The notes under the pieces: generated by a model
The model's database searches: none
Seen by the model: only the letters and a program-made list of their open reading frames with translations
Told to the model about the DNA's origin: nothing
Shown here: positions 13,880 to 22,591 of the stretch, piece by piece
Layout: each line of letters begins with the position of its first letter
Position numbering within the stretch: position 1 is the stretch's first letter
Made by a program: the position numbers and the translations under genes
NCBI GenBank assembly: GCA_000004985.1
Contig: GG738951.1
Reading direction: 5' to 3' (one strand)
Source of the DNA: Naegleria gruberi
Taxonomy: Eukaryota
DNA length: 24,047 bases

Positions 13880-16861
13880 TTAAAGTTTTGATTGTTGTTT
13901 GTTGGAATCATTGTTAATAATTTCATGAGCAGCAATTCTTCCATAAACAACACATTCCAATAAACTATTACCAGCCAATCTATTTAAACCATGTAATCCA
14001 CCTGATGCTTCACCTGCAGTATATAAACCTTGAATTGGTTCAACAGTATTATCATTTGCAATTCTTCTTAAAACTCTTGCCTTTTCATCAAATAATAAAC
14101 CACCATGTGTATAGTGAATGGAAGGTGTAATTCTTGAAATATAAATGGTATCATTTAAATTAAATAGAGTTGGGAATAAATTCTTTCCAAAATCATCTAC
14201 AATTGAATTATTTAATTGATATTGATTATAAAAATGATTATAATTTTCAATAGTATTAATTAATTGTTGTAAATTTAAATGTTGTAATGATTCTTGATGA
14301 GCATGTTGTAAATTATTAAATTTCTTAATAAAACCTTTACCAATATAAAAAGATAATAAAGATTCACTAAAAGATTTAGCAACATGATCATTCATAATCA
14401 TATAAGCAGTAGTATGTCCATTTTCAATTTCAGATTTACAATTTTTAAATATCATATCAGAAACATAATCTCTTCTACCTAATTCATTACAAAATCTATT
14501 ACCATTCTCATTAACTATAATACCACCATAAGCACGTAATGCTTCAGCTGCTAAAAATACTGTCATACTTTTAGGATTTAATGGATCAATAAATCCAGTT
14601 GGATGTACTTGAATAGATTCCATATGTATTAATGAGGCTCCTAATTCTTTAACTGCCATTCTAATACCTTCTCCATTAGCAAATTTACCATTAGTAGTTG
14701 GTAATTTTGATAATTGTGGTGCATATTCTTTTAAATATCCTTCTCTATCTGCTGCATATCCACCTGTTGTTAATACAACTGATGATACTTTTAATTCTTT
14801 AACTTGTTGTTCTTTTAATTCTTTTAATTGTTCTGATTGTGATTCTTTTGATTGTTCTTTTGATTCTTGTTCAAGAGTAATATATTTAATACCTGTTACA
14901 ATTGTATTATTATTTTCATCAATTAAAGTTAAAAAACCAATCATTTTAGTACTTGTCATTACAGTAACTCTATCATTTAAATTATTCTTAATATAATTTA
15001 ATAATTTAAAAGTAATTTCAGCACCAACATTCATTGCACGTCCAACTTTAGGTGGAGCAGAACGATGTGTACGTGCCATTGAATGACCACCACATTGTGT
15101 TACTAATTCCATTCCAATACCATGATTTTCTAAAAATTCAATTGCACTTGTTGATTCTTTAACAAGTGTTGAAATTAATTTAGGATTACCTGCTTGTTTA
15201 CCTGATTTAGTAGTATCAGATATAAATAAATCAACTGTATCAGGAATTGATAATCTTTCCTGTGCTTTAGTTAATACTCCATTAATACCTGATGTTGCTT
15301 TAGCACTATTACCACCTGTACGTTCTTCTTTTTCAATTAAATAAACATAACCTCCTAATTCTGCAATTTCAATAGCTGCTGATAATCCTGCAAGTCCACC
15401 TCCAATCACTGCTACTTTTATTGGTGATGATGATGATTGATTAGTTGTAGATGTAGATTCAGTAGTGGTGGTGGATTGTGTAGTAGATTGTTCAACAGTT
15501 GGAGTGTCCATACTTGGTTGATTGGTAGTAGTGGTATCGGATTGTTTTTGATCACTTGTTGGAGTAGTAGTGATAGGTGTAGTAACCTCTTCTTGTTGTT
15601 GTTTAGTAGTAGTAGTAGGAGTGGTGCTAGTAGGAGTAGTTGTTGTTGGTTCTTCTTGTTGTTGTTGTTCAACTTTAGCCTTTGATTCTACTTGTTTGGT
15701 TTCAGCAGTAACTGTAGGGGTTGTTGTTGGAGTACTTGGAGTAGCAGCAGTAGTAGTAGTAGTTTCAGCTTGAGGTGTTGTTGTTGTAGTTGATGTGCTT
15801 GGTTGAGTGGTGGAAGTAGTGGTGGTTGTTGGGTTCAAATTTGGAATTTGTTTTTTATGAATCTTATTTTGGATAAATTCTAAAGCTTGTTCAAATTCAC
15901 TATTTAAATTTGTATAAATTTTAATCCTATCACTATTATTTAATAAAATATTATTTAAATTATTATTATTACTATCAATAATATTATCATCATAATTATA
16001 AAAATAATTAAATTCTTCAAATAATGTAATTGTATTTTGATTAATAGAATTATGAATACTATTATTATCATTTTCATTTAAATTATTTAAATTACAATGT
16101 TTTAATAATGGTAATAAAATAGATCTAGTAGGTAATATATTTGTAATTAATTTATATAATTTTTTAAATAAAATAGATGATGTCTTTTTACCTAATATTT
16201 TATTATAAATAATTGAAATTAATTTATGAATAGATTTATAATCTTTAATTAATTCAATTATTTTATCAATTGTAATCTTTTCATTAATAATTGAATTATT
16301 AATTGGTAATATTGGTGAAAATAAAACTATATTTTCAATATTTTCAATATTATTATTTAATTGTTGTAATTGTTTATAATATAATAAAGTATAAAAAGCA
16401 CCTAATTGATGACCAATTAAACTATATGAATTTAATTTTAATTCATTAACAATAGATTGAATAGAATTCATAATTAAATAATATTGTTCTTTAGAACATG
16501 AACAAGTATTTAAAGTATTATTGTTAGTATTTAAAAAAGATTGACCAATACCAGGTCTATCAAATTTAATTAATCTAATAGAATGTTTTTTAGCTAATTC
16601 ATCTTCATTTAAATGTCCATATGAAAGTGATCCAGGTGTAGGATGTAATTGAATAACTGCATGTCCATTCAAATCACCCAATTCAATATAGGCTATTTTA
16701 GATCCATCCTTTTCAATATATTTTAATTTATTACTAATATTACTATTTAATAATGATTCTGTATGTTTAGGATTTTTATATAAATTAACATTACTTGAAT
16801 ACAATAATGATAAGACTATTGCAATCAAGGCTGTTGTGAGAATAAGTAATTTACTCAACAT
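13880..16861 (-). CDS. 993-aa fusion protein. From N to C: signal peptide or signal anchor; alpha/beta-hydrolase fold domain with the nucleophile Ser replaced by Gln; mucin-like Thr/Pro/Ser/Gln linker; and a soluble FAD-dependent fumarate reductase (OSM1/FRDS, flavocytochrome-c-type flavoprotein).
   Basis: The N-terminus MLSKLLILTTALIAIVLSLLYSS is hydrophobic. HPTPGS and DRPGIGQS match alpha/beta-hydrolase boxes, but the elbow is GHQLG (codon caa at minus-strand 16408-16406). TTTTSTTQPSTSTTTTTPQAETTTTTAATPSTPTTTPT forms the linker. The C-terminal half matches yeast OSM1 closely: VAVIGGGLAGLSAAIE...GGNSAKATSGINGV, GGHSMARTHRS, LPTTNGKFANGEGI, IQVHPTGFIDP, FLAAEALRAYGG, HYTHGG, GLYTAGEASGGLHGLNRLAGNSLLECVVYG. 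Confidence 0.85.
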   Translation of the reverse strand: MLSKLLILTTALIAIVLSLLYSSNVNLYKNPKHTESLLNSNISNKLKYIEKDGSKIAYIELGDLNGHAVIQLHPTPGSLSYGHLNEDELAKKHSIRLIKFDRPGIGQSFLNTNNNTLNTCSCSKEQYYLIMNSIQSIVNELKLNSYSLIGHQLGAFYTLLYYKQLQQLNNNIENIENIVLFSPILPINNSIINEKITIDKIIELIKDYKSIHKLISIIYNKILGKKTSSILFKKLYKLITNILPTRSILLPLLKHCNLNNLNENDNNSIHNSINQNTITLFEEFNYFYNYDDNIIDSNNNNLNNILLNNSDRIKIYTNLNSEFEQALEFIQNKIHKKQIPNLNPTTTTTSTTQPSTSTTTTTPQAETTTTTAATPSTPTTTPTVTAETKQVESKAKVEQQQQEEPTTTTPTSTTPTTTTKQQQEEVTTPITTTPTSDQKQSDTTTTNQPSMDTPTVEQSTTQSTTTTESTSTTNQSSSSPIKVAVIGGGLAGLSAAIEIAELGGYVYLIEKEERTGGNSAKATSGINGVLTKAQERLSIPDTVDLFISDTTKSGKQAGNPKLISTLVKESTSAIEFLENHGIGMELVTQCGGHSMARTHRSAPPKVGRAMNVGAEITFKLLNYIKNNLNDRVTVMTSTKMIGFLTLIDENNNTIVTGIKYITLEQESKEQSKESQSEQLKELKEQQVKELKVSSVVLTTGGYAADREGYLKEYAPQLSKLPTTNGKFANGEGIRMAVKELGASLIHMESIQVHPTGFIDPLNPKSMTVFLAAEALRAYGGIIVNENGNRFCNELGRRDYVSDMIFKNCKSEIENGHTTAYMIMNDHVAKSFSESLLSFYIGKGFIKKFNNLQHAHQESLQHLNLQQLINTIENYNHFYNQYQLNNSIVDDFGKNLFPTLFNLNDTIYISRITPSIHYTHGGLLFDEKARVLRRIANDNTVEPIQGLYTAGEASGGLHGLNRLAGNSLLECVVYGRIAAHEIINNDSNKQQSKL
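15420..15840 (-). repeat. Low-complexity (ACT/ACC/AGT)n-type coding repeat, encoding the Thr/Pro-rich linker of the fusion protein
   Basis: Overlapping ORFs on both strands here are artefacts of the simple-sequence tract. Confidence 0.7.
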
Positions 16862-17152: not shown

Positions 17153-18016
17153 CTATTGTCTTGGTAAAATAGAATCTTTTAAATCTTGATTTTGTAACAT
17201 TGACCATTCTTGATCTGAAAAGATGAATAAATGAGAAGGTAAAGGTTTACCATTTGGTAATTTAACATTGGGTATTCTTAATTCATCAAAGAAAGGATGA
17301 GCTAAAGCATCCATTGGAGTAATTCTACGTTTTGGATCATATTGTAATAATTTTGTAATTAAATCAACACTATTATTCATTTCAATGAAAGGATCAATTT
17401 GTGAACCAGAATTTGAACCATTATTAGCTTGATAATTACGTTGTAAAAATTGAAATCTATCTGCAAAAACTTGATCCCATGGATTTGGTTTAACTTGTGG
17501 AAATTTAAATTCAGTATAATTCTTATTCATTGCTAAAATATCTTGTTTAGAAGGAGCACCTAATACTTTAATAATTTCAACTAATTGATCAACTGAACTT
17601 TCACCTTGAAATAAAGGAGTACCTAACATTAATTCACCCATAACACATCCACATGACCATACATCAACTGAACAAGTATATTTTGTTGATTGAAATATTA
17701 ATTCAGGTGCTCTATAATATCTTGAACAAATATATGATACGTTAGGTTCTCCTTCTTTTAATTGTTTTGCATTTCCAAAATCACATAATTTTAAAATTCC
17801 ACTCACTGGATCTATTAATAAATTTTGTGGTTTTATATCACGATGACAAATACCAAGTGAATGTATATATATCACTGAACGTAATAATTGAAATACAAAT
17901 AATTTAACATAAATACTTGGTACATAGGAATTATGTTTAGCATAATTCATACAAAATCTATAAACTGTATCAGGTACATATTCTAATACTAAATTTAAAT
18001 ATACTTCTTCTGGATC
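17153..18016 (-). CDS. gskA: Glycogen synthase kinase-3, exon 2 (kinase subdomains V-XI and C-terminal tail)
   Basis: [20 protein letters not shown]...[19 protein letters not shown]...[12 protein letters not shown]...[19 protein letters not shown]...[15 protein letters not shown]...[15 protein letters not shown] matches GSK-3beta almost residue for residue. The acceptor ...AAAATAATAG lies at 18017-18020. Confidence 0.9.
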
Positions 18017-18160
18017 CTATTATTTTAAATTGTTTTAAATTGTTTTTTAAATATTATTATAGATATAAATATTATTATTATAAATATTATTATTATTAAA
18101 AATATTAAAATTATTAAAAATATTAAAATTATTAAAAATATTATAAATATAAAAACTTAC

Positions 18161-18787
18161 TCTATCACCTCTTGAATAAAAATAATTTTTCAATTCAACA
18201 ACATTTGGATGTGATAATGTTTTCATTACTTGTAATTCTCTATTTTTAAATCTCTTATCTTGAAGTACTTTCTTAATAGCTACTATATCTCCTGTTTCTT
18301 GTACTTTAGCTAGAAATACAACACCAAAACTACCATTACCAATCACTTTAACAGCACTATAAGAAACTACTTTGCCTTGTCGTGTTGGTGGTGATGTTGT
18401 TGAGGTTGCTGCTGCTGTAGTAGTAGTAGTAGTAGTAGATGAATTATTATTTGGTTGTTGTTGTTGTTGAATAGATGAATTGACTAGGCTAGTGGAAGGT
18501 TGTTGTTTTGAATTGATGGATTTGGTTTTTCTAGTTGGTGATTCATTTCCAGGTTGATTAGTTATATTATTTGTATTATTAGTGGTTGTAGTAGTACTTG
18601 TTGTTGTAGATTTTGATGAAGATTGATAATTATTATAGGATCTATTGGTTTTATCATTATTTCCAATTTGAAGATAATTAAAATTATTAATTAAATTATC
18701 CATATTATTATTGTTAGTAGTATTTGTATTGGAATTTGAATTGTTATTATTATTATTATTATTAATGAAGGAATTATTATTGTACAT
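18161..18787 (-). CDS. gskA: Glycogen synthase kinase-3, exon 1 (poly-Asn/Thr N-terminus, ATP-binding loop, VAIK, HRD upstream region). The true start may be the second Met, MDNLINNF.
   Basis: [67 protein letters not shown] is followed by a GTAAGT donor at minus-strand 18160. The 144-nt intron (18017-18160) contains (aaaatattaaaattatt)n repeats. Phase is preserved: 627 nt plus 864 nt. Confidence 0.9.
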
Positions 18788-22142: not shown

Positions 22143-22591
22143 NNNNNNNNNNNNNNNNNNNNNNNNNNNNNNNNNNNNNNNNNNNNNNNNNNNNNNNNNN
22201 NNNNNNNNNNNNNNNNNNNNNNNNNNNNNNNNNNNNNNNNNNNNNNNNNNNNNNNNNNNNNNNNNNNNNNNNNNNNNNNNNNNNNNNNNNNNNNNNNNNN
22301 NNNNNNNNNNNNNNNNNNNNNNNNNNNNNNNNNNNNNNNNNNNNNNNNNNNNNNNNNNNNNNNNNNNNNNNNNNNNNNNNNNNNNNNNNNNNNNNNNNNN
22401 NNNNNNNNNNNNNNNNNNNNNNNNNNNNNNNNNNNNNNNNNNNNNNNNNNNNNNNNNNNNNNNNNNNNNNNNNNNNNNNNNNNNNNNNNNNNNNNNNNNN
22501 NNNNNNNNNNNNNNNNNNNNNNNNNNNNNNNNNNNNNNNNNNNNNNNNNNNNNNNNNNNNNNNNNNNNNNNNNNNNNNNNNNNNNNNNNNN
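22143..22591. other. Assembly gap (449 N)
   Basis: Run of n characters. Confidence 1.

What the first reader, a model, noticed from the sequence alone, without database searches (positions are those of the whole stretch)
13880..16861. Secretory-type fumarate reductase fused to a pseudo-hydrolase and a mucin linker
A single uninterrupted 993-codon ORF joins four parts.
(i) A hydrophobic N-terminal signal peptide or anchor.
(ii) An alpha/beta-hydrolase fold of the proline-iminopeptidase type.
(iii) A Thr/Pro-rich spacer of the kind that dictyostelids O-glycosylate on secreted and surface proteins.
(iv) A complete OSM1/FRDS-class soluble FAD fumarate reductase. Its active-site His/Arg positions appear conserved (QVHPTG, AAEALR, HYTHGG, GGHSMARTHR).

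Soluble fumarate reductases are normally cytosolic or mitochondrial. Yeast Osm1 is also found in the ER, where it is thought to reoxidise FAD for Ero1-driven disulfide formation under anoxia. A fumarate reductase hard-wired to the secretory pathway and tethered to a second domain would be an unusual architecture. It suggests a lumenal or extracellular FAD/fumarate redox function.
Basis: partly seen in the sequence, partly recalled or inferred. Interest (0 to 1): 0.75.

Follow-up and report, generated by a model that had tools for sequence, protein, structure and literature searches.

The report
Membrane-anchored fumarate reductase with dead hydrolase
This is a real single gene of a Naegleria-type amoeba, not a slime mould, that joins a membrane anchor, a catalytically dead hydrolase-like domain and an intact yeast-Osm1-type fumarate reductase; relatives share the fusion, but its cellular address is unresolved because it has an ER-type start and a peroxisome-type end.

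Summary
There is one 993-codon ORF (13880-16861, minus strand). It has a hydrophobic N-terminus, an alpha/beta-hydrolase-fold domain, a 140-residue Thr-rich linker and a complete Osm1-class FAD fumarate reductase.

- **Organism.** The protein is deposited as Naegleria gruberi XP_002668799. Orthologs with the same architecture and the same upstream kinase gene occur in Willaertia and other heteroloboseans, so the organism is not a dictyostelid.
- **Hydrolase domain.** It is a generic Abhydrolase_1/6 fold, not specifically a proline iminopeptidase. In N. gruberi all three triad positions are lost.
- **Linker.** It is coding but lineage-specific, and similar Thr tracts occur in the neighbouring cytosolic-type kinase. 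It is therefore not evidence of mucin-type secretion.
- **ER targeting.** It is not unusual in this family. Of 110 close non-fusion homologs, 45 end in KDEL-like motifs and 63 have a hydrophobic N-terminus. One fusion member ends in -KLEL.
- **Missed signal.** The N. gruberi and Willaertia proteins both end in -SKL, the canonical peroxisomal signal.

The new element is the anchor plus pseudo-hydrolase plus fumarate reductase fusion, found here almost only in heterolobosean-type sequences. Localisation (ER lumen versus peroxisome) remains open.

The parts
13880..16861 (-). Whole 993-codon gene (stop codon 13880-13882), equal to N. gruberi XP_002668799
16793..16861 (-). Residues 1-23: N-terminal hydrophobic segment, either a signal peptide or a signal anchor. 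No in-frame Met follows until residue 131.
   Evidence: A hydrophobic N-terminus is present in all ten orthologs.
15842..16729 (-). Residues ~45-340: alpha/beta-hydrolase-fold domain that is catalytically dead. The cap region is poorly predicted.
16400..16414 (-). Nucleophile elbow GHQLG (residues 150-154), with Gln152 in place of the catalytic Ser
15422..15841 (-). Residues 341-480: Thr/Ser/Gln/Pro-rich low-complexity linker. It is coding and lineage-specific.
13961..15415 (-). Residues 483-967: Osm1-class FAD fumarate reductase domain. Catalytic residues are H753, E773, R776, R797, H916 and R961.
14795..14872 (-). Residues 664-689: Glu/Lys/Gln/Ser-rich insertion inside the reductase domain, absent from all orthologs
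13883..13891 (-). C-terminal tripeptide Ser-Lys-Leu (residues 991-993), the canonical PTS1 motif, shared with Willaertia
17153..18787 (-). Upstream GSK3-like protein kinase gene (two exons). It is the syntenic neighbour of the fusion gene in Willaertia (L001) and in the environmental contig L003.

Best explanation
**What it is.** The gene encodes a heterolobosean-specific, membrane-tethered form of the Osm1-type soluble fumarate reductase.

**Shown**
- The C-terminal domain keeps the full FAD-binding and fumarate-binding machinery. It has no heme, cytochrome b5 or NADH-reductase module.
- The N-terminal alpha/beta-hydrolase domain has lost its triad in Naegleria.
- A hydrophobic segment sits at the extreme N-terminus in every ortholog.

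**Inferred**
- Like yeast Osm1, the enzyme takes electrons from reduced free flavin or from a partner flavoprotein, and it reduces fumarate to succinate.
- The N-terminal segment directs the nascent chain co-translationally into the ER membrane with the bulk of the protein in the lumen. The KDEL-type homologs, and the fusion member ending in -KLEL, point the same way.
- There the enzyme acts as an oxygen-independent electron sink for flavin-dependent oxidases such as Ero1.
- The dead hydrolase domain is a membrane-proximal scaffold or docking module rather than an enzyme.
- The Thr-rich segment is a species-specific flexible spacer.
For: - **Reductase identity.** FAD_binding_2 E 1.3e-65; TIGR01813 370.5 bits against a cutoff of 285.45; Osm1 5glg E 1.2e-83 with the motifs aligned.
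- **Catalytic residues.** The six residues whose mutation strongly reduces Osm1 activity (H281, E301, R304, R326, H435, R477; PMC6242907) correspond to H753, E773, R776, R797, H916 and R961. All six are invariant in the eight-ortholog alignment.
- **No electron-donor domain.** No cytochrome or reductase domain is present.
- **Dead hydrolase.**. P0009 keeps Ser, Asp and His, which suggests the ancestral fusion partner was an active hydrolase.
- **Conserved fusion.** Ten orthologs show the fusion, with conserved synteny.
- **Anchor topology.** The N-flank is positive in all ten orthologs. The C-flank is neutral or negative in seven and +1 in N. gruberi, Willaertia and P0009, where the N-flank charge is equal or larger. 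The anchor is the first thing to leave the ribosome, about 970 residues before the C-terminus.
- **ER context of the family.** 45 of 110 homologs end in [DE]L, against 1.1 expected. 63 of 110 have a hydrophobic N-terminus. P0009 ends in -KLEL, as does a nematode homolog. ERO1-reductase-cytochrome b5 fusions exist.
- **Precedent.** Yeast Osm1 accepts electrons from Ero1 and from free FAD (PMC6242907).
Against: - N. gruberi and Willaertia end in -SKL although the rest of their tails differ. This points to a functional peroxisomal signal, which would be useless in the ER lumen.
- Neither protein has a KDEL-like ending.
- In these two species the charge difference across the anchor is small, so topology is not secure.
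- No SignalP-type predictor, transcript data or localisation data were available.
- Only 4 of 7 residues of the second flavin site of Osm1 are identical (read from the alignment against the residue list).
- N. gruberi is reported to behave as an obligate aerobe (PMC6205838), so the need for an anaerobic electron sink is unclear.
Confidence: 0.45

Rival explanations
1. The protein is a peroxisomal fumarate reductase. The conserved C-terminal -SKL is a working PTS1 and Pex5 delivers the protein to peroxisomes. This parallels the PTS1-bearing glycosomal fumarate reductase of trypanosomatids. There the enzyme would serve as a redox sink during the lipid-based metabolism of Naegleria. The N-terminal hydrophobic segment would anchor it to the peroxisomal membrane or be bypassed.
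For: - -SKL is present in both N. gruberi and Willaertia although the preceding tail residues differ in length and sequence.
- PTS1-like endings are about 30-fold enriched in the homolog set: 8 of 110 against 0.26 expected.
- Naegleria has peroxisomes and many PTS1 proteins (PMC9512073; PMC6205838).
- The trypanosomatid succinic branch uses a glycosomal fumarate reductase.
Against: - A very hydrophobic segment at the extreme N-terminus should engage ER targeting long before the C-terminus is made.
- No downstream Met could give a soluble isoform; the next Met is residue 131.
- The Acrasis-type orthologs and P0009 have no PTS1, and P0127 ends in the non-canonical -NQL.
- This enzyme has no NADH-using domain, unlike the trypanosomatid enzyme.
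- The protein was not found in the held supplements of the N. gruberi organelle proteome paper. That search was by name and accession only, so it is weak evidence.
Confidence: 0.28
2. The protein is a dual-signal protein that bridges two organelles. The N-terminal anchor holds it in the ER (or another membrane) with the bulk facing the cytosol. The C-terminal PTS1 engages the peroxisomal import machinery. The protein then acts as an ER-peroxisome tether or shuttles between the two, as described for yeast Ptc5 and other dual-signal proteins. The long flexible linker would provide reach.
For: - Proteins with an N-terminal targeting signal plus TMD and a C-terminal PTS1 can tether peroxisomes to partner organelles (PMC10906886).
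- The anchor plus PTS1-like combination recurs in independent homologs: P0046, P0076, P0080, P0114 and P0118.
- Positive residues follow the anchor in Willaertia and N. gruberi, which leaves a cytosolic orientation possible.
Against: - In the Acrasis-type orthologs the flanking charges clearly favour a lumenal C-terminus.
- P0009 carries a lumenal-type -KLEL.
- Several of the recurring anchor plus PTS1 homologs have a Met just after the anchor. That suggests alternative isoforms rather than tethering.
- The long linker is absent from Willaertia.
- There is no experimental support in this lineage.
Confidence: 0.12
3. It is an artefact. Either two neighbouring genes (a hydrolase and a reductase) were joined by an assembly or annotation error or by an unspliced in-frame intron, or the sequence comes from a contaminant of the N. 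gruberi assembly.
For: - The window is a small 24-kb scaffold with two runs of N.
- It has 24.5% GC and a third-position GC of 5-8%. The orthologous loci have much higher third-position GC, 14-32%.
- No other Naegleria species appears among the best 120 hits.
- The linker is low-complexity, and one other reading frame across it has only 2 stops.
Against: - The same domain order occurs in uninterrupted ORFs in three independent assemblies, with the same upstream kinase in two of them.
- The linker has strong codon-position structure (GC 0.38/0.67/0.16). No GT occurs at the 5' edge of the linker, so there is no in-frame GT...AG option.
- The N runs lie far from the gene.
- Even if the scaffold were a contaminant, homology and synteny place it in Heterolobosea, and the protein itself would still be real.
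Confidence: 0.04

Closest known systems
Yeast Osm1 / Frd1 soluble FAD fumarate reductase (PDB 5glg, 5zyn; PMC6242907)
   Same: - It is the best solved relative (E 1.2e-83).
- It has the same flavin and clamp domains.
- All six catalytic residues are shared, and neither protein has a heme domain.
- Osm1 also has an ER-resident pool, which takes electrons from Ero1 or from free FAD.
   Different: - Osm1 has no hydrolase-like domain and no long linker.
- From my own knowledge, Osm1 reaches the ER and mitochondria through alternative N-termini. Here there is one start and a permanent hydrophobic N-terminus.
- Only 4 of the 7 residues of Osm1's second flavin site are identical here.
- This protein ends in -SKL.
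Animal and algal Osm1-class reductases with a signal peptide and KDEL-like end (for example the C. elegans F48E8.3 family; P0016, P0017, P0021, P0025, P0026)
   Same: - They share about 40-45% identity in the reductase domain.
- They have a hydrophobic N-terminus.
- An ER-directed design is common among them: 45 of 110 homologs end in [DE]L.
   Different: - They are about 500 residues long and have no second domain.
- Most carry a retrieval motif, which N. gruberi lacks.
- The literature I read calls F48E8.3 cytoplasmic (PMC3589421).
Trypanosomatid glycosomal NADH-dependent fumarate reductase (FRDg)
   Same: - It has a flavocytochrome-c-type reductase domain in a multidomain protein.
- It is a glycosomal, PTS1-type enzyme in a member of the same supergroup, Discoba.
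   Different: - From my own knowledge, FRDg has an ApbE-like N-terminal domain and a cytochrome b5 reductase C-terminal domain, and it uses NADH. Neither domain is present here.
- From my own knowledge, FRDg has no N-terminal membrane anchor.
Catalytically inactive alpha/beta-hydrolase domains (pseudo-hydrolases); nearest solved sequences are PHB depolymerase 8ynv, HsaD/BphD C-C hydrolases and haloperoxidases
   Same: - It has the same fold and the same strand order around the nucleophile elbow.
- The nucleophile has been lost, as in other non-catalytic members of the fold (my own knowledge).
   Different: - Identity to any solved hydrolase is only 10-22%.
- It is fused to a flavoenzyme.
- All three triad positions are lost in N. 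gruberi, while one ortholog (P0009) keeps them.
Dual-signal proteins such as yeast Ptc5 (PMC10906886)
   Same: It has an N-terminal targeting segment with a transmembrane stretch plus a C-terminal PTS1.
   Different: - The N-terminal signal of Ptc5 is mitochondrial, whereas here it looks ER-type.
- The catalytic domains are unrelated.

Membership tests
Osm1/FRDS-class soluble fumarate reductase (flavocytochrome c flavoprotein family, TIGR01813) | FAD_binding_2 domain with an N-terminal GxGxxG dinucleotide fold | tested here: met
   PF00890 covers residues 483-967, E 1.3e-65. GGGLAGL lies at 487-493.
Osm1/FRDS-class soluble fumarate reductase (flavocytochrome c flavoprotein family, TIGR01813) | Score above the curated family cutoff | tested here: met
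   TIGR01813 scores 370.5 bits against a cutoff of 285.45.
Osm1/FRDS-class soluble fumarate reductase (flavocytochrome c flavoprotein family, TIGR01813) | Six catalytic and substrate-binding residues (Osm1 H281, E301, R304, R326, H435, R477) | tested here: met
   They correspond to H753, E773, R776, R797, H916 and R961. They align and are invariant. The residue list comes from PMC6242907.
Osm1/FRDS-class soluble fumarate reductase (flavocytochrome c flavoprotein family, TIGR01813) | No heme or cytochrome domain (this separates Osm1 from bacterial Fcc3) | tested here: met
   No cytochrome family appears in the Pfam scan.
Osm1/FRDS-class soluble fumarate reductase (flavocytochrome c flavoprotein family, TIGR01813) | Second flavin-binding pocket of Osm1 (S78, P162, W295, F297, L298, F362, Y363) | tested here: inconclusive
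   Read from the alignment: F, L, F and Y are identical; S becomes T; P becomes G; W becomes T.
Osm1/FRDS-class soluble fumarate reductase (flavocytochrome c flavoprotein family, TIGR01813) | Fumarate-dependent oxidation of reduced flavin | not testable with these tools
   This needs an enzyme assay.
Alpha/beta-hydrolase fold (Abhydrolase_1/6) | Pfam family threshold reached | tested here: not met
   The N. gruberi domain gives no hit even at E<=10. The Willaertia ortholog passes at 28.0 bits against 25.8.
Alpha/beta-hydrolase fold (Abhydrolase_1/6) | Three-dimensional fold and strand order | tested here: met
   The model core has pLDDT of about 80-92. 1016 PDB hydrolase chains match at E<=1e-3. 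The profile search gives 31 PDB hits, all hydrolases.
Alpha/beta-hydrolase fold (Abhydrolase_1/6) | Ser/Asp/His catalytic triad | tested here: not met
   Ser is replaced by Gln152, the Asp segment is deleted, and His is replaced by Arg. The domain is therefore fold-related but not an active hydrolase.
Proline iminopeptidase (peptidase S33) | Closest relatives are prolyl aminopeptidases | tested here: not met
   1wm1 and 1azw are among many equally good fold hits. In the profile search a PHB depolymerase leads at 2.8e-9, and the iminopeptidase-related chain 2yys reaches only 3e-4.
Secretory / ER-lumenal protein | N-terminal signal peptide or signal anchor | tested here: inconclusive
   Hydrophobicity and flanking-charge heuristics fit. 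No dedicated predictor was available.
Secretory / ER-lumenal protein | C-terminal KDEL-type retrieval motif (for a resident lumenal protein) | tested here: not met
   The protein ends in -QSKL. The motif is present in P0009 (-KLEL) and in 45 of 110 homologs.
PTS1 peroxisomal matrix protein | C-terminal [SAC][KRH][LM] | tested here: met
   -SKL lies at residues 991-993. It is also present in Willaertia.
PTS1 peroxisomal matrix protein | No competing N-terminal co-translational signal | tested here: not met
   A hydrophobic segment starts at residue 1-5.
Mucin-type O-glycosylated linker | Ser/Thr/Pro-rich composition | tested here: met
   The linker is 41% Thr, 12% Ser and 10% Pro.
Mucin-type O-glycosylated linker | Conservation, and restriction to secreted proteins | tested here: not met
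   It is absent or short in most orthologs. Similar tracts occur in the adjacent kinase.
Mucin-type O-glycosylated linker | Actual glycosylation | not testable with these tools
   This needs biochemistry.
Trypanosomatid NADH-fumarate reductase | ApbE-like and cytochrome b5 reductase domains flanking the reductase | tested here: not met
   Neither domain appears in the Pfam scan.

The most novel reading that the evidence does not exclude
The protein carries two working but opposed address labels: an ER-type N-terminal anchor and a peroxisomal -SKL, separated by a long flexible spacer. It would act both as a fumarate-dependent flavin oxidase and as a physical bridge, or as a shuttling enzyme, between the ER and peroxisomes. 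The anchor plus PTS1-like combination recurs in unrelated homologs, which would make this a general but unrecognised design of eukaryotic soluble fumarate reductases.
Probability: 0.12. Interest if true: 0.65.

Novelty: new variant of a known kind. Interest (0 to 1): 0.36.

Why it matters
- **Where soluble fumarate reductases work.** They are the only known route by which yeast keeps disulfide-forming flavoenzymes oxidised without oxygen. The homolog survey here suggests that ER-directed versions are widespread in eukaryotes. They are common in nematodes, where the literature I read calls the enzyme cytoplasmic. Some eukaryotes have even fused Ero1 to the reductase.
- **What the heterolobosean fusion adds.** It contributes a conserved dead hydrolase domain of unknown role. 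It also carries a clear conflict between an ER-type start and a peroxisomal end. Both can be tested with simple localisation experiments.
- **What is already ordinary.** The gene is annotated as a fumarate reductase, and its enzymology is expected to be conventional.

Tried and rejected
- **Full-length protein search.** It was swamped by low-complexity words and gave only four hits. Searching the reductase domain alone worked.
- **Pfam on the N. gruberi N-terminal domain alone.** No hit. The fold had to be established through orthologs, a structure model and profile searches.
- **Metagenome scan for more close relatives with intact C-termini.** It found only distant flavoproteins, some matching only the N-terminal FAD-binding stretch. 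Conservation of -SKL therefore rests on two genera.
- **Exact look-up of the window protein's contig.** Not on record.
- **Literature.** No paper mentions the accession. The protein is not found in the held supplements of the Naegleria peroxisome/glycosome survey or of the organelle proteome paper. No paper describes Ero1-reductase fusions.
- **In-frame intron reading of the linker.** Rejected on codon-position GC and the lack of a GT...AG option.
- **Dictyostelid origin.** Rejected because no dictyostelid appears among the best 120 hits, and because synteny and the best matches are with Willaertia.
- **Strict single origin of the fusion.** Not demonstrated. In a neighbour-joining tree the nine fusion proteins sit in a 12-member clade with three non-fusion sequences, and strict monophyly has 6/100 bootstrap support.
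- **Second structure prediction of the whole protein.** Not run, because the tool returns no inter-domain error map and the result could not have been interpreted.


Full report
**1. The observation**

The ORF at 13880-16861 on the minus strand is real. It starts with ATG and encodes 993 residues. Its product is identical to the deposited protein XP_002668799 / EFC36055 / D2W4F0, named 'fumarate reductase [Naegleria gruberi strain NEG-M]'. That protein lies on a contig of 24,047 bases, the same length as this window.

- **N-terminus.** Residues 1-23 form the only strongly hydrophobic stretch apart from the FAD Rossmann strand.
- **Linker.** Residues 341-480 are 41% Thr, 12% Ser, 11% Gln and 10% Pro.
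- **Reductase domain.** Pfam FAD_binding_2 covers residues 483-967 at E 1.3e-65. NCBIfam TIGR01813 (flavocytochrome c) scores 370.5 bits against a curated cutoff of 285.45.
- **Motifs.** The quoted motifs QVHPTG, AAEALR, HYTHGG and GGHSMARTHR are at residues 751-756, 771-776, 916-921 and 591-600.

**2. The reductase domain**

The closest solved structure is yeast Osm1 (5glg, E 1.2e-83). It aligns over the whole domain.

Kim et al. (PMC6242907) identified six residues whose mutation strongly reduces Osm1 activity: H281, E301, R304, R326, H435 and R477. I counted positions in the alignment. These correspond to H753, E773, R776, R797, H916 and R961 here. All six are invariant across eight orthologs.

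The catalytic acid Arg lies in ELGRRD (793-798). A further substrate Arg lies in NRLAGNS (960-966).

There is no heme, cytochrome b5 or NADH-reductase module. The enzyme is therefore of the Osm1 kind, which oxidises reduced flavins. It is not of the bacterial Fcc3 kind or the trypanosomatid NADH-dependent kind.

Of the seven residues that form Osm1's second flavin pocket, four are identical here (F, L, F, Y). One is conservative (S to T) and two differ (P to G, W to T). Use of free flavin is therefore plausible but not shown.

**3. The N-terminal domain**

On its own this domain matches no Pfam family, even at a permissive threshold. It gives only a marginal PDB sequence hit (5h3h, E 0.093). 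Four independent lines still establish an alpha/beta-hydrolase fold.
- The Willaertia ortholog passes the Abhydrolase_1 threshold, 28.0 bits against 25.8.
- An exhaustive phmmer search of 1.84 billion representatives gives 98 hits at E<=1e-3. Seven of the ten top hits I checked are ordinary Abhydrolase_1/6 proteins, and two more are fusion orthologs.
- An AlphaFold model built on nine orthologs has a confident core (pLDDT about 80-92 over model residues 20-160) with the expected strand-helix order. Foldseek finds 1016 PDB chains at E<=1e-3, and all 50 chains listed are alpha/beta-hydrolases.
- A profile of the nine orthologs hits 31 PDB sequences, all alpha/beta-hydrolases.

Prolyl aminopeptidases appear among the fold hits but are not distinguished from the others. 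The best profile match is a poly(3-hydroxybutyrate) depolymerase (2.8e-9). C-C hydrolases and haloperoxidases follow, and a proline-iminopeptidase-related protein scores only 3e-4. The 'proline-iminopeptidase type' label is therefore not supported as a specific assignment.

The 'pseudo-hydrolase' label is supported. The nucleophile Ser of the depolymerase aligns with Gln152 in GHQLG. The segment that carries the Asp in Willaertia, P0009 and P0127 is missing in N. gruberi. The His position is Arg.

The state of the triad varies across orthologs.

| Ortholog | Ser position | Asp position | His position |
|---|---|---|---|
| N. gruberi | Gln | segment missing | Arg |
| Willaertia | Gln | Asp | Glu |
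| Acrasis-type | Gly | absent | His |
| P0127 | Gly | segment present (Asp not confirmed) | His |
| P0009 | Ser | Asp | His |

An active hydrolase was therefore probably the original fusion partner. Catalysis was later lost while the domain itself was kept. That points to a structural or docking role.

**4. One gene, and whose gene**

The same order (hydrophobic N-terminus, hydrolase-like domain, reductase) is found in ten proteins.
- N. gruberi (this window).
- Willaertia magna P0005: 863 aa, 65% identical in the reductase domain.
- An environmental Naegleria-like fragment, P0125.
- P0009.
- P0127.
- Acrasis kona P0088 and four Acrasis-like sequences.

The genomic evidence agrees.
- In Willaertia (L001) and in the Logan contig L002 the gene is a single uninterrupted ORF.
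- A two-exon GSK3-like kinase lies immediately upstream, on the same strand, in the window, in Willaertia and in the environmental contig L003. Kinase exon 2 is 75-80% identical. These are therefore true orthologs in syntenic positions.
- No dictyostelid appears among the best 120 reductase hits.

The organism is thus a heterolobosean.

One caution applies. The window has 24.5% GC and a third-position GC of only 5-8% in all but one of the ORFs examined. That is well below Willaertia L001 (28.7% overall) and the Naegleria-like L003 (36%). No other Naegleria species appears in the hit list either. I could not check whether this small scaffold is typical of N. gruberi.

In a neighbour-joining tree of 84 reductase domains, the nine full-length fusion proteins fall in a 12-member clade together with three non-fusion sequences. 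Strict monophyly is not supported (6/100 bootstraps). The N. gruberi plus Willaertia pair and the Acrasis-type group each get 100/100.

**5. The linker**

The linker is coding. GC by codon position is 0.38/0.67/0.16, against about 0.2 in the flanking intergenic DNA and in the kinase intron. No GT occurs at its 5' edge, so no in-frame GT...AG intron is possible.

It is not conserved. Willaertia has about 45 Ser/Lys/Gln-rich residues at that position. The Acrasis-type proteins and P0009 have none. P0125 has an independent Ser/Thr-rich stretch.

Thr/Ser/Pro-rich tracts also occur in the N-terminal region of the neighbouring GSK3-like kinase, up to 63% in a 30-residue window. In this genome such tracts look like general low-complexity expansions. 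They do not indicate mucin-type secretion.

The reductase domain also carries a species-specific Glu/Lys/Gln/Ser insertion at residues 664-689.

**6. Where the protein goes**

*In favour of an ER or secretory route*
- Every ortholog starts with a hydrophobic segment of 19-25 residues.
- The N-flank charge is positive. The C-flank charge is neutral or negative in seven orthologs and +1 in three, including N. gruberi and Willaertia. This mostly fits a signal peptide or a type II anchor with the bulk of the protein in the lumen.
- This segment emerges from the ribosome about 970 residues before the C-terminus.
- The family context points the same way. Among the 110 nearest non-fusion homologs, 63 have a strongly hydrophobic segment upstream of the FAD motif.
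- Of the same 110, 45 end in a KDEL-like [DE]L motif (HEEL, KDEL, HDEL, RSDL, RTEL and others). Only 1.1 would be expected from composition.
- The fusion member P0009 ends in -KLEL, as does a Steinernema homolog whose relatives carry HEEL/KDEL.
- Two environmental eukaryotic proteins fuse a full Ero1 domain (E about 1e-80) to the reductase and a cytochrome b5 domain. This is independent support for the Ero1-to-fumarate-reductase electron path proposed for yeast (PMC6242907).

An ER-directed Osm1-class reductase is therefore not unusual. It appears to be a common design.

*Against a simple ER reading*
- N. gruberi and Willaertia both end in -SKL, the canonical PTS1. The preceding tail residues differ in sequence and length...NNDSNKQQSKL against ...GQTVSKL.
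- PTS1-like endings are about 30-fold enriched in the homolog set, 8 of 110 against 0.26 expected. Five of those eight also have a hydrophobic N-terminus.
- Several of those homologs have a Met just after the anchor. That suggests alternative isoforms, like the alternative N-termini that, from my own knowledge, direct yeast Osm1 to the ER and mitochondria. In N. gruberi the next Met is residue 131, so that explanation does not apply here.
- Proteins with an N-terminal targeting signal plus a PTS1 are known to be dually localised or to tether organelles (PMC10906886).
- In N. gruberi and Willaertia the charge difference across the anchor is small, so even the topology is uncertain.

No localisation data exist in the literature I could search.

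**7. Most likely mechanism**

*Shown*
- An intact Osm1-type reductase domain.
- A dead hydrolase-fold domain.
- An N-terminal hydrophobic anchor.
- Conservation of the fusion across heteroloboseans.

*Inferred*
- The enzyme oxidises reduced flavin, either free or on a partner flavoprotein, and reduces fumarate to succinate.
- It is inserted into the ER with the catalytic domain in the lumen.
- There it offers an oxygen-independent outlet for flavin oxidases such as Ero1.
- The dead hydrolase domain serves as a scaffold.

I give this reading 0.45. The peroxisomal reading gets 0.28 and the dual-signal or tether reading 0.12. An artefact gets 0.04. The remainder covers other localisations.

**8. 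Novelty**

The gene is already annotated as a fumarate reductase, and its chemistry is expected to be conventional. The idea of an ER fumarate reductase is established for yeast.

What I did not find described is the conserved fusion of an anchor, a degenerate alpha/beta-hydrolase domain and an Osm1-type reductase. In the searches run here this fusion is restricted to heterolobosean-type sequences. The combination of an ER-type N-terminus with a peroxisomal C-terminus is also undescribed.

I therefore class it as a new variant of a known kind, of moderate interest. The wider by-products may interest specialists more than the window gene itself. These are the frequency of signal-peptide-plus-KDEL forms in animals and the Ero1-reductase-cytochrome b5 fusions.

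Noticed in passing
P0002 (1340 aa; locus L010:5840-9862) and P0003 (1238 aa), from JGI metagenomes: Single proteins join a signal-peptide-like N-terminus, a full ERO1 domain (E about 1e-80), an Osm1-class fumarate reductase (E about 1e-77) and a C-terminal cytochrome b5 domain. P0002 lies on a eukaryotic-looking contig next to COG4, PARP and ANF_receptor genes. This fusion supports the Ero1-to-fumarate-reductase electron path proposed for yeast. I found no paper describing it.
   Followed up: partly
Homologs P0006-P0124 (not in the window): Of 110 close Osm1-class reductases from nematodes, annelids, cnidarians, fungi, brown algae and environmental samples, 45 end in KDEL-like motifs and 63 have a hydrophobic N-terminus. 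The C. elegans member F48E8.3 is described in the literature I read as a cytoplasmic enzyme (PMC3589421). An ER-lumenal location for the animal enzymes seems under-appreciated.
   Followed up: partly
Homologs P0023, P0028, P0041, P0046, P0055, P0076, P0080, P0114, P0118: Many homologs have a Met immediately after the N-terminal transmembrane segment (for example ...FPEISIMSGS and ...YYLSQMDPR). Some also carry a PTS1-like end (-SKL, -SRL, -AHL). This suggests alternative translation starts that would give anchored and soluble or peroxisomal isoforms.
   Followed up: no
Whole window, 1-24047: Overall GC is 24.5% and third-codon-position GC is only 5-8% in all but one of the ORFs examined. The syntenic loci from Willaertia (28.7% overall) and a Naegleria-like environmental contig (36%) are clearly less AT-rich. 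Two runs of N lie at 907-2220 and 22143-22591. I could not check whether this small scaffold is typical of N. gruberi.
   Followed up: partly
window:17153-18787 (-): A GSK3-like protein kinase is split by a short AT-rich intron (about 17951-18046). It has a long Asn/Thr/Ser-rich N-terminal extension. It is the conserved upstream neighbour of the fusion gene in Willaertia and in L003.
   Followed up: yes
window:2229-4008 (-), running into the N gap at 907-2220: This ORF encodes an EML-type (echinoderm microtubule-associated protein-like) double beta-propeller protein (Beta-prop_EML_2, E 2e-95). The assembly gap truncates it.
   Followed up: no
L003:4250-4444 (environmental Naegleria-like contig): The orthologous reductase domain is interrupted by about 190 bases between the matches to residues 473-516 and 516-785. 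This is probably an intron. It is absent from the N. gruberi and Willaertia genes.
   Followed up: no
window:14795-14872 (-): A 26-residue Glu/Lys/Gln/Ser-rich insertion (EQESKEQSKESQSEQLKELKEQQVKE) sits inside the reductase domain. It is absent from yeast Osm1 and from all orthologs.
   Followed up: no
P0130, P0131 (bacterial-type relatives of the N-terminal domain): The nearest non-fusion relatives of the hydrolase-like domain include proteins of about 600 residues with a long N-terminal extension that matches no Pfam family; I read the extension as a LuxR-type regulatory region from the sequence alone. At the nucleophile position these proteins carry Cys or Asp instead of Ser (GYCGG, GHDAG).
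   Followed up: no
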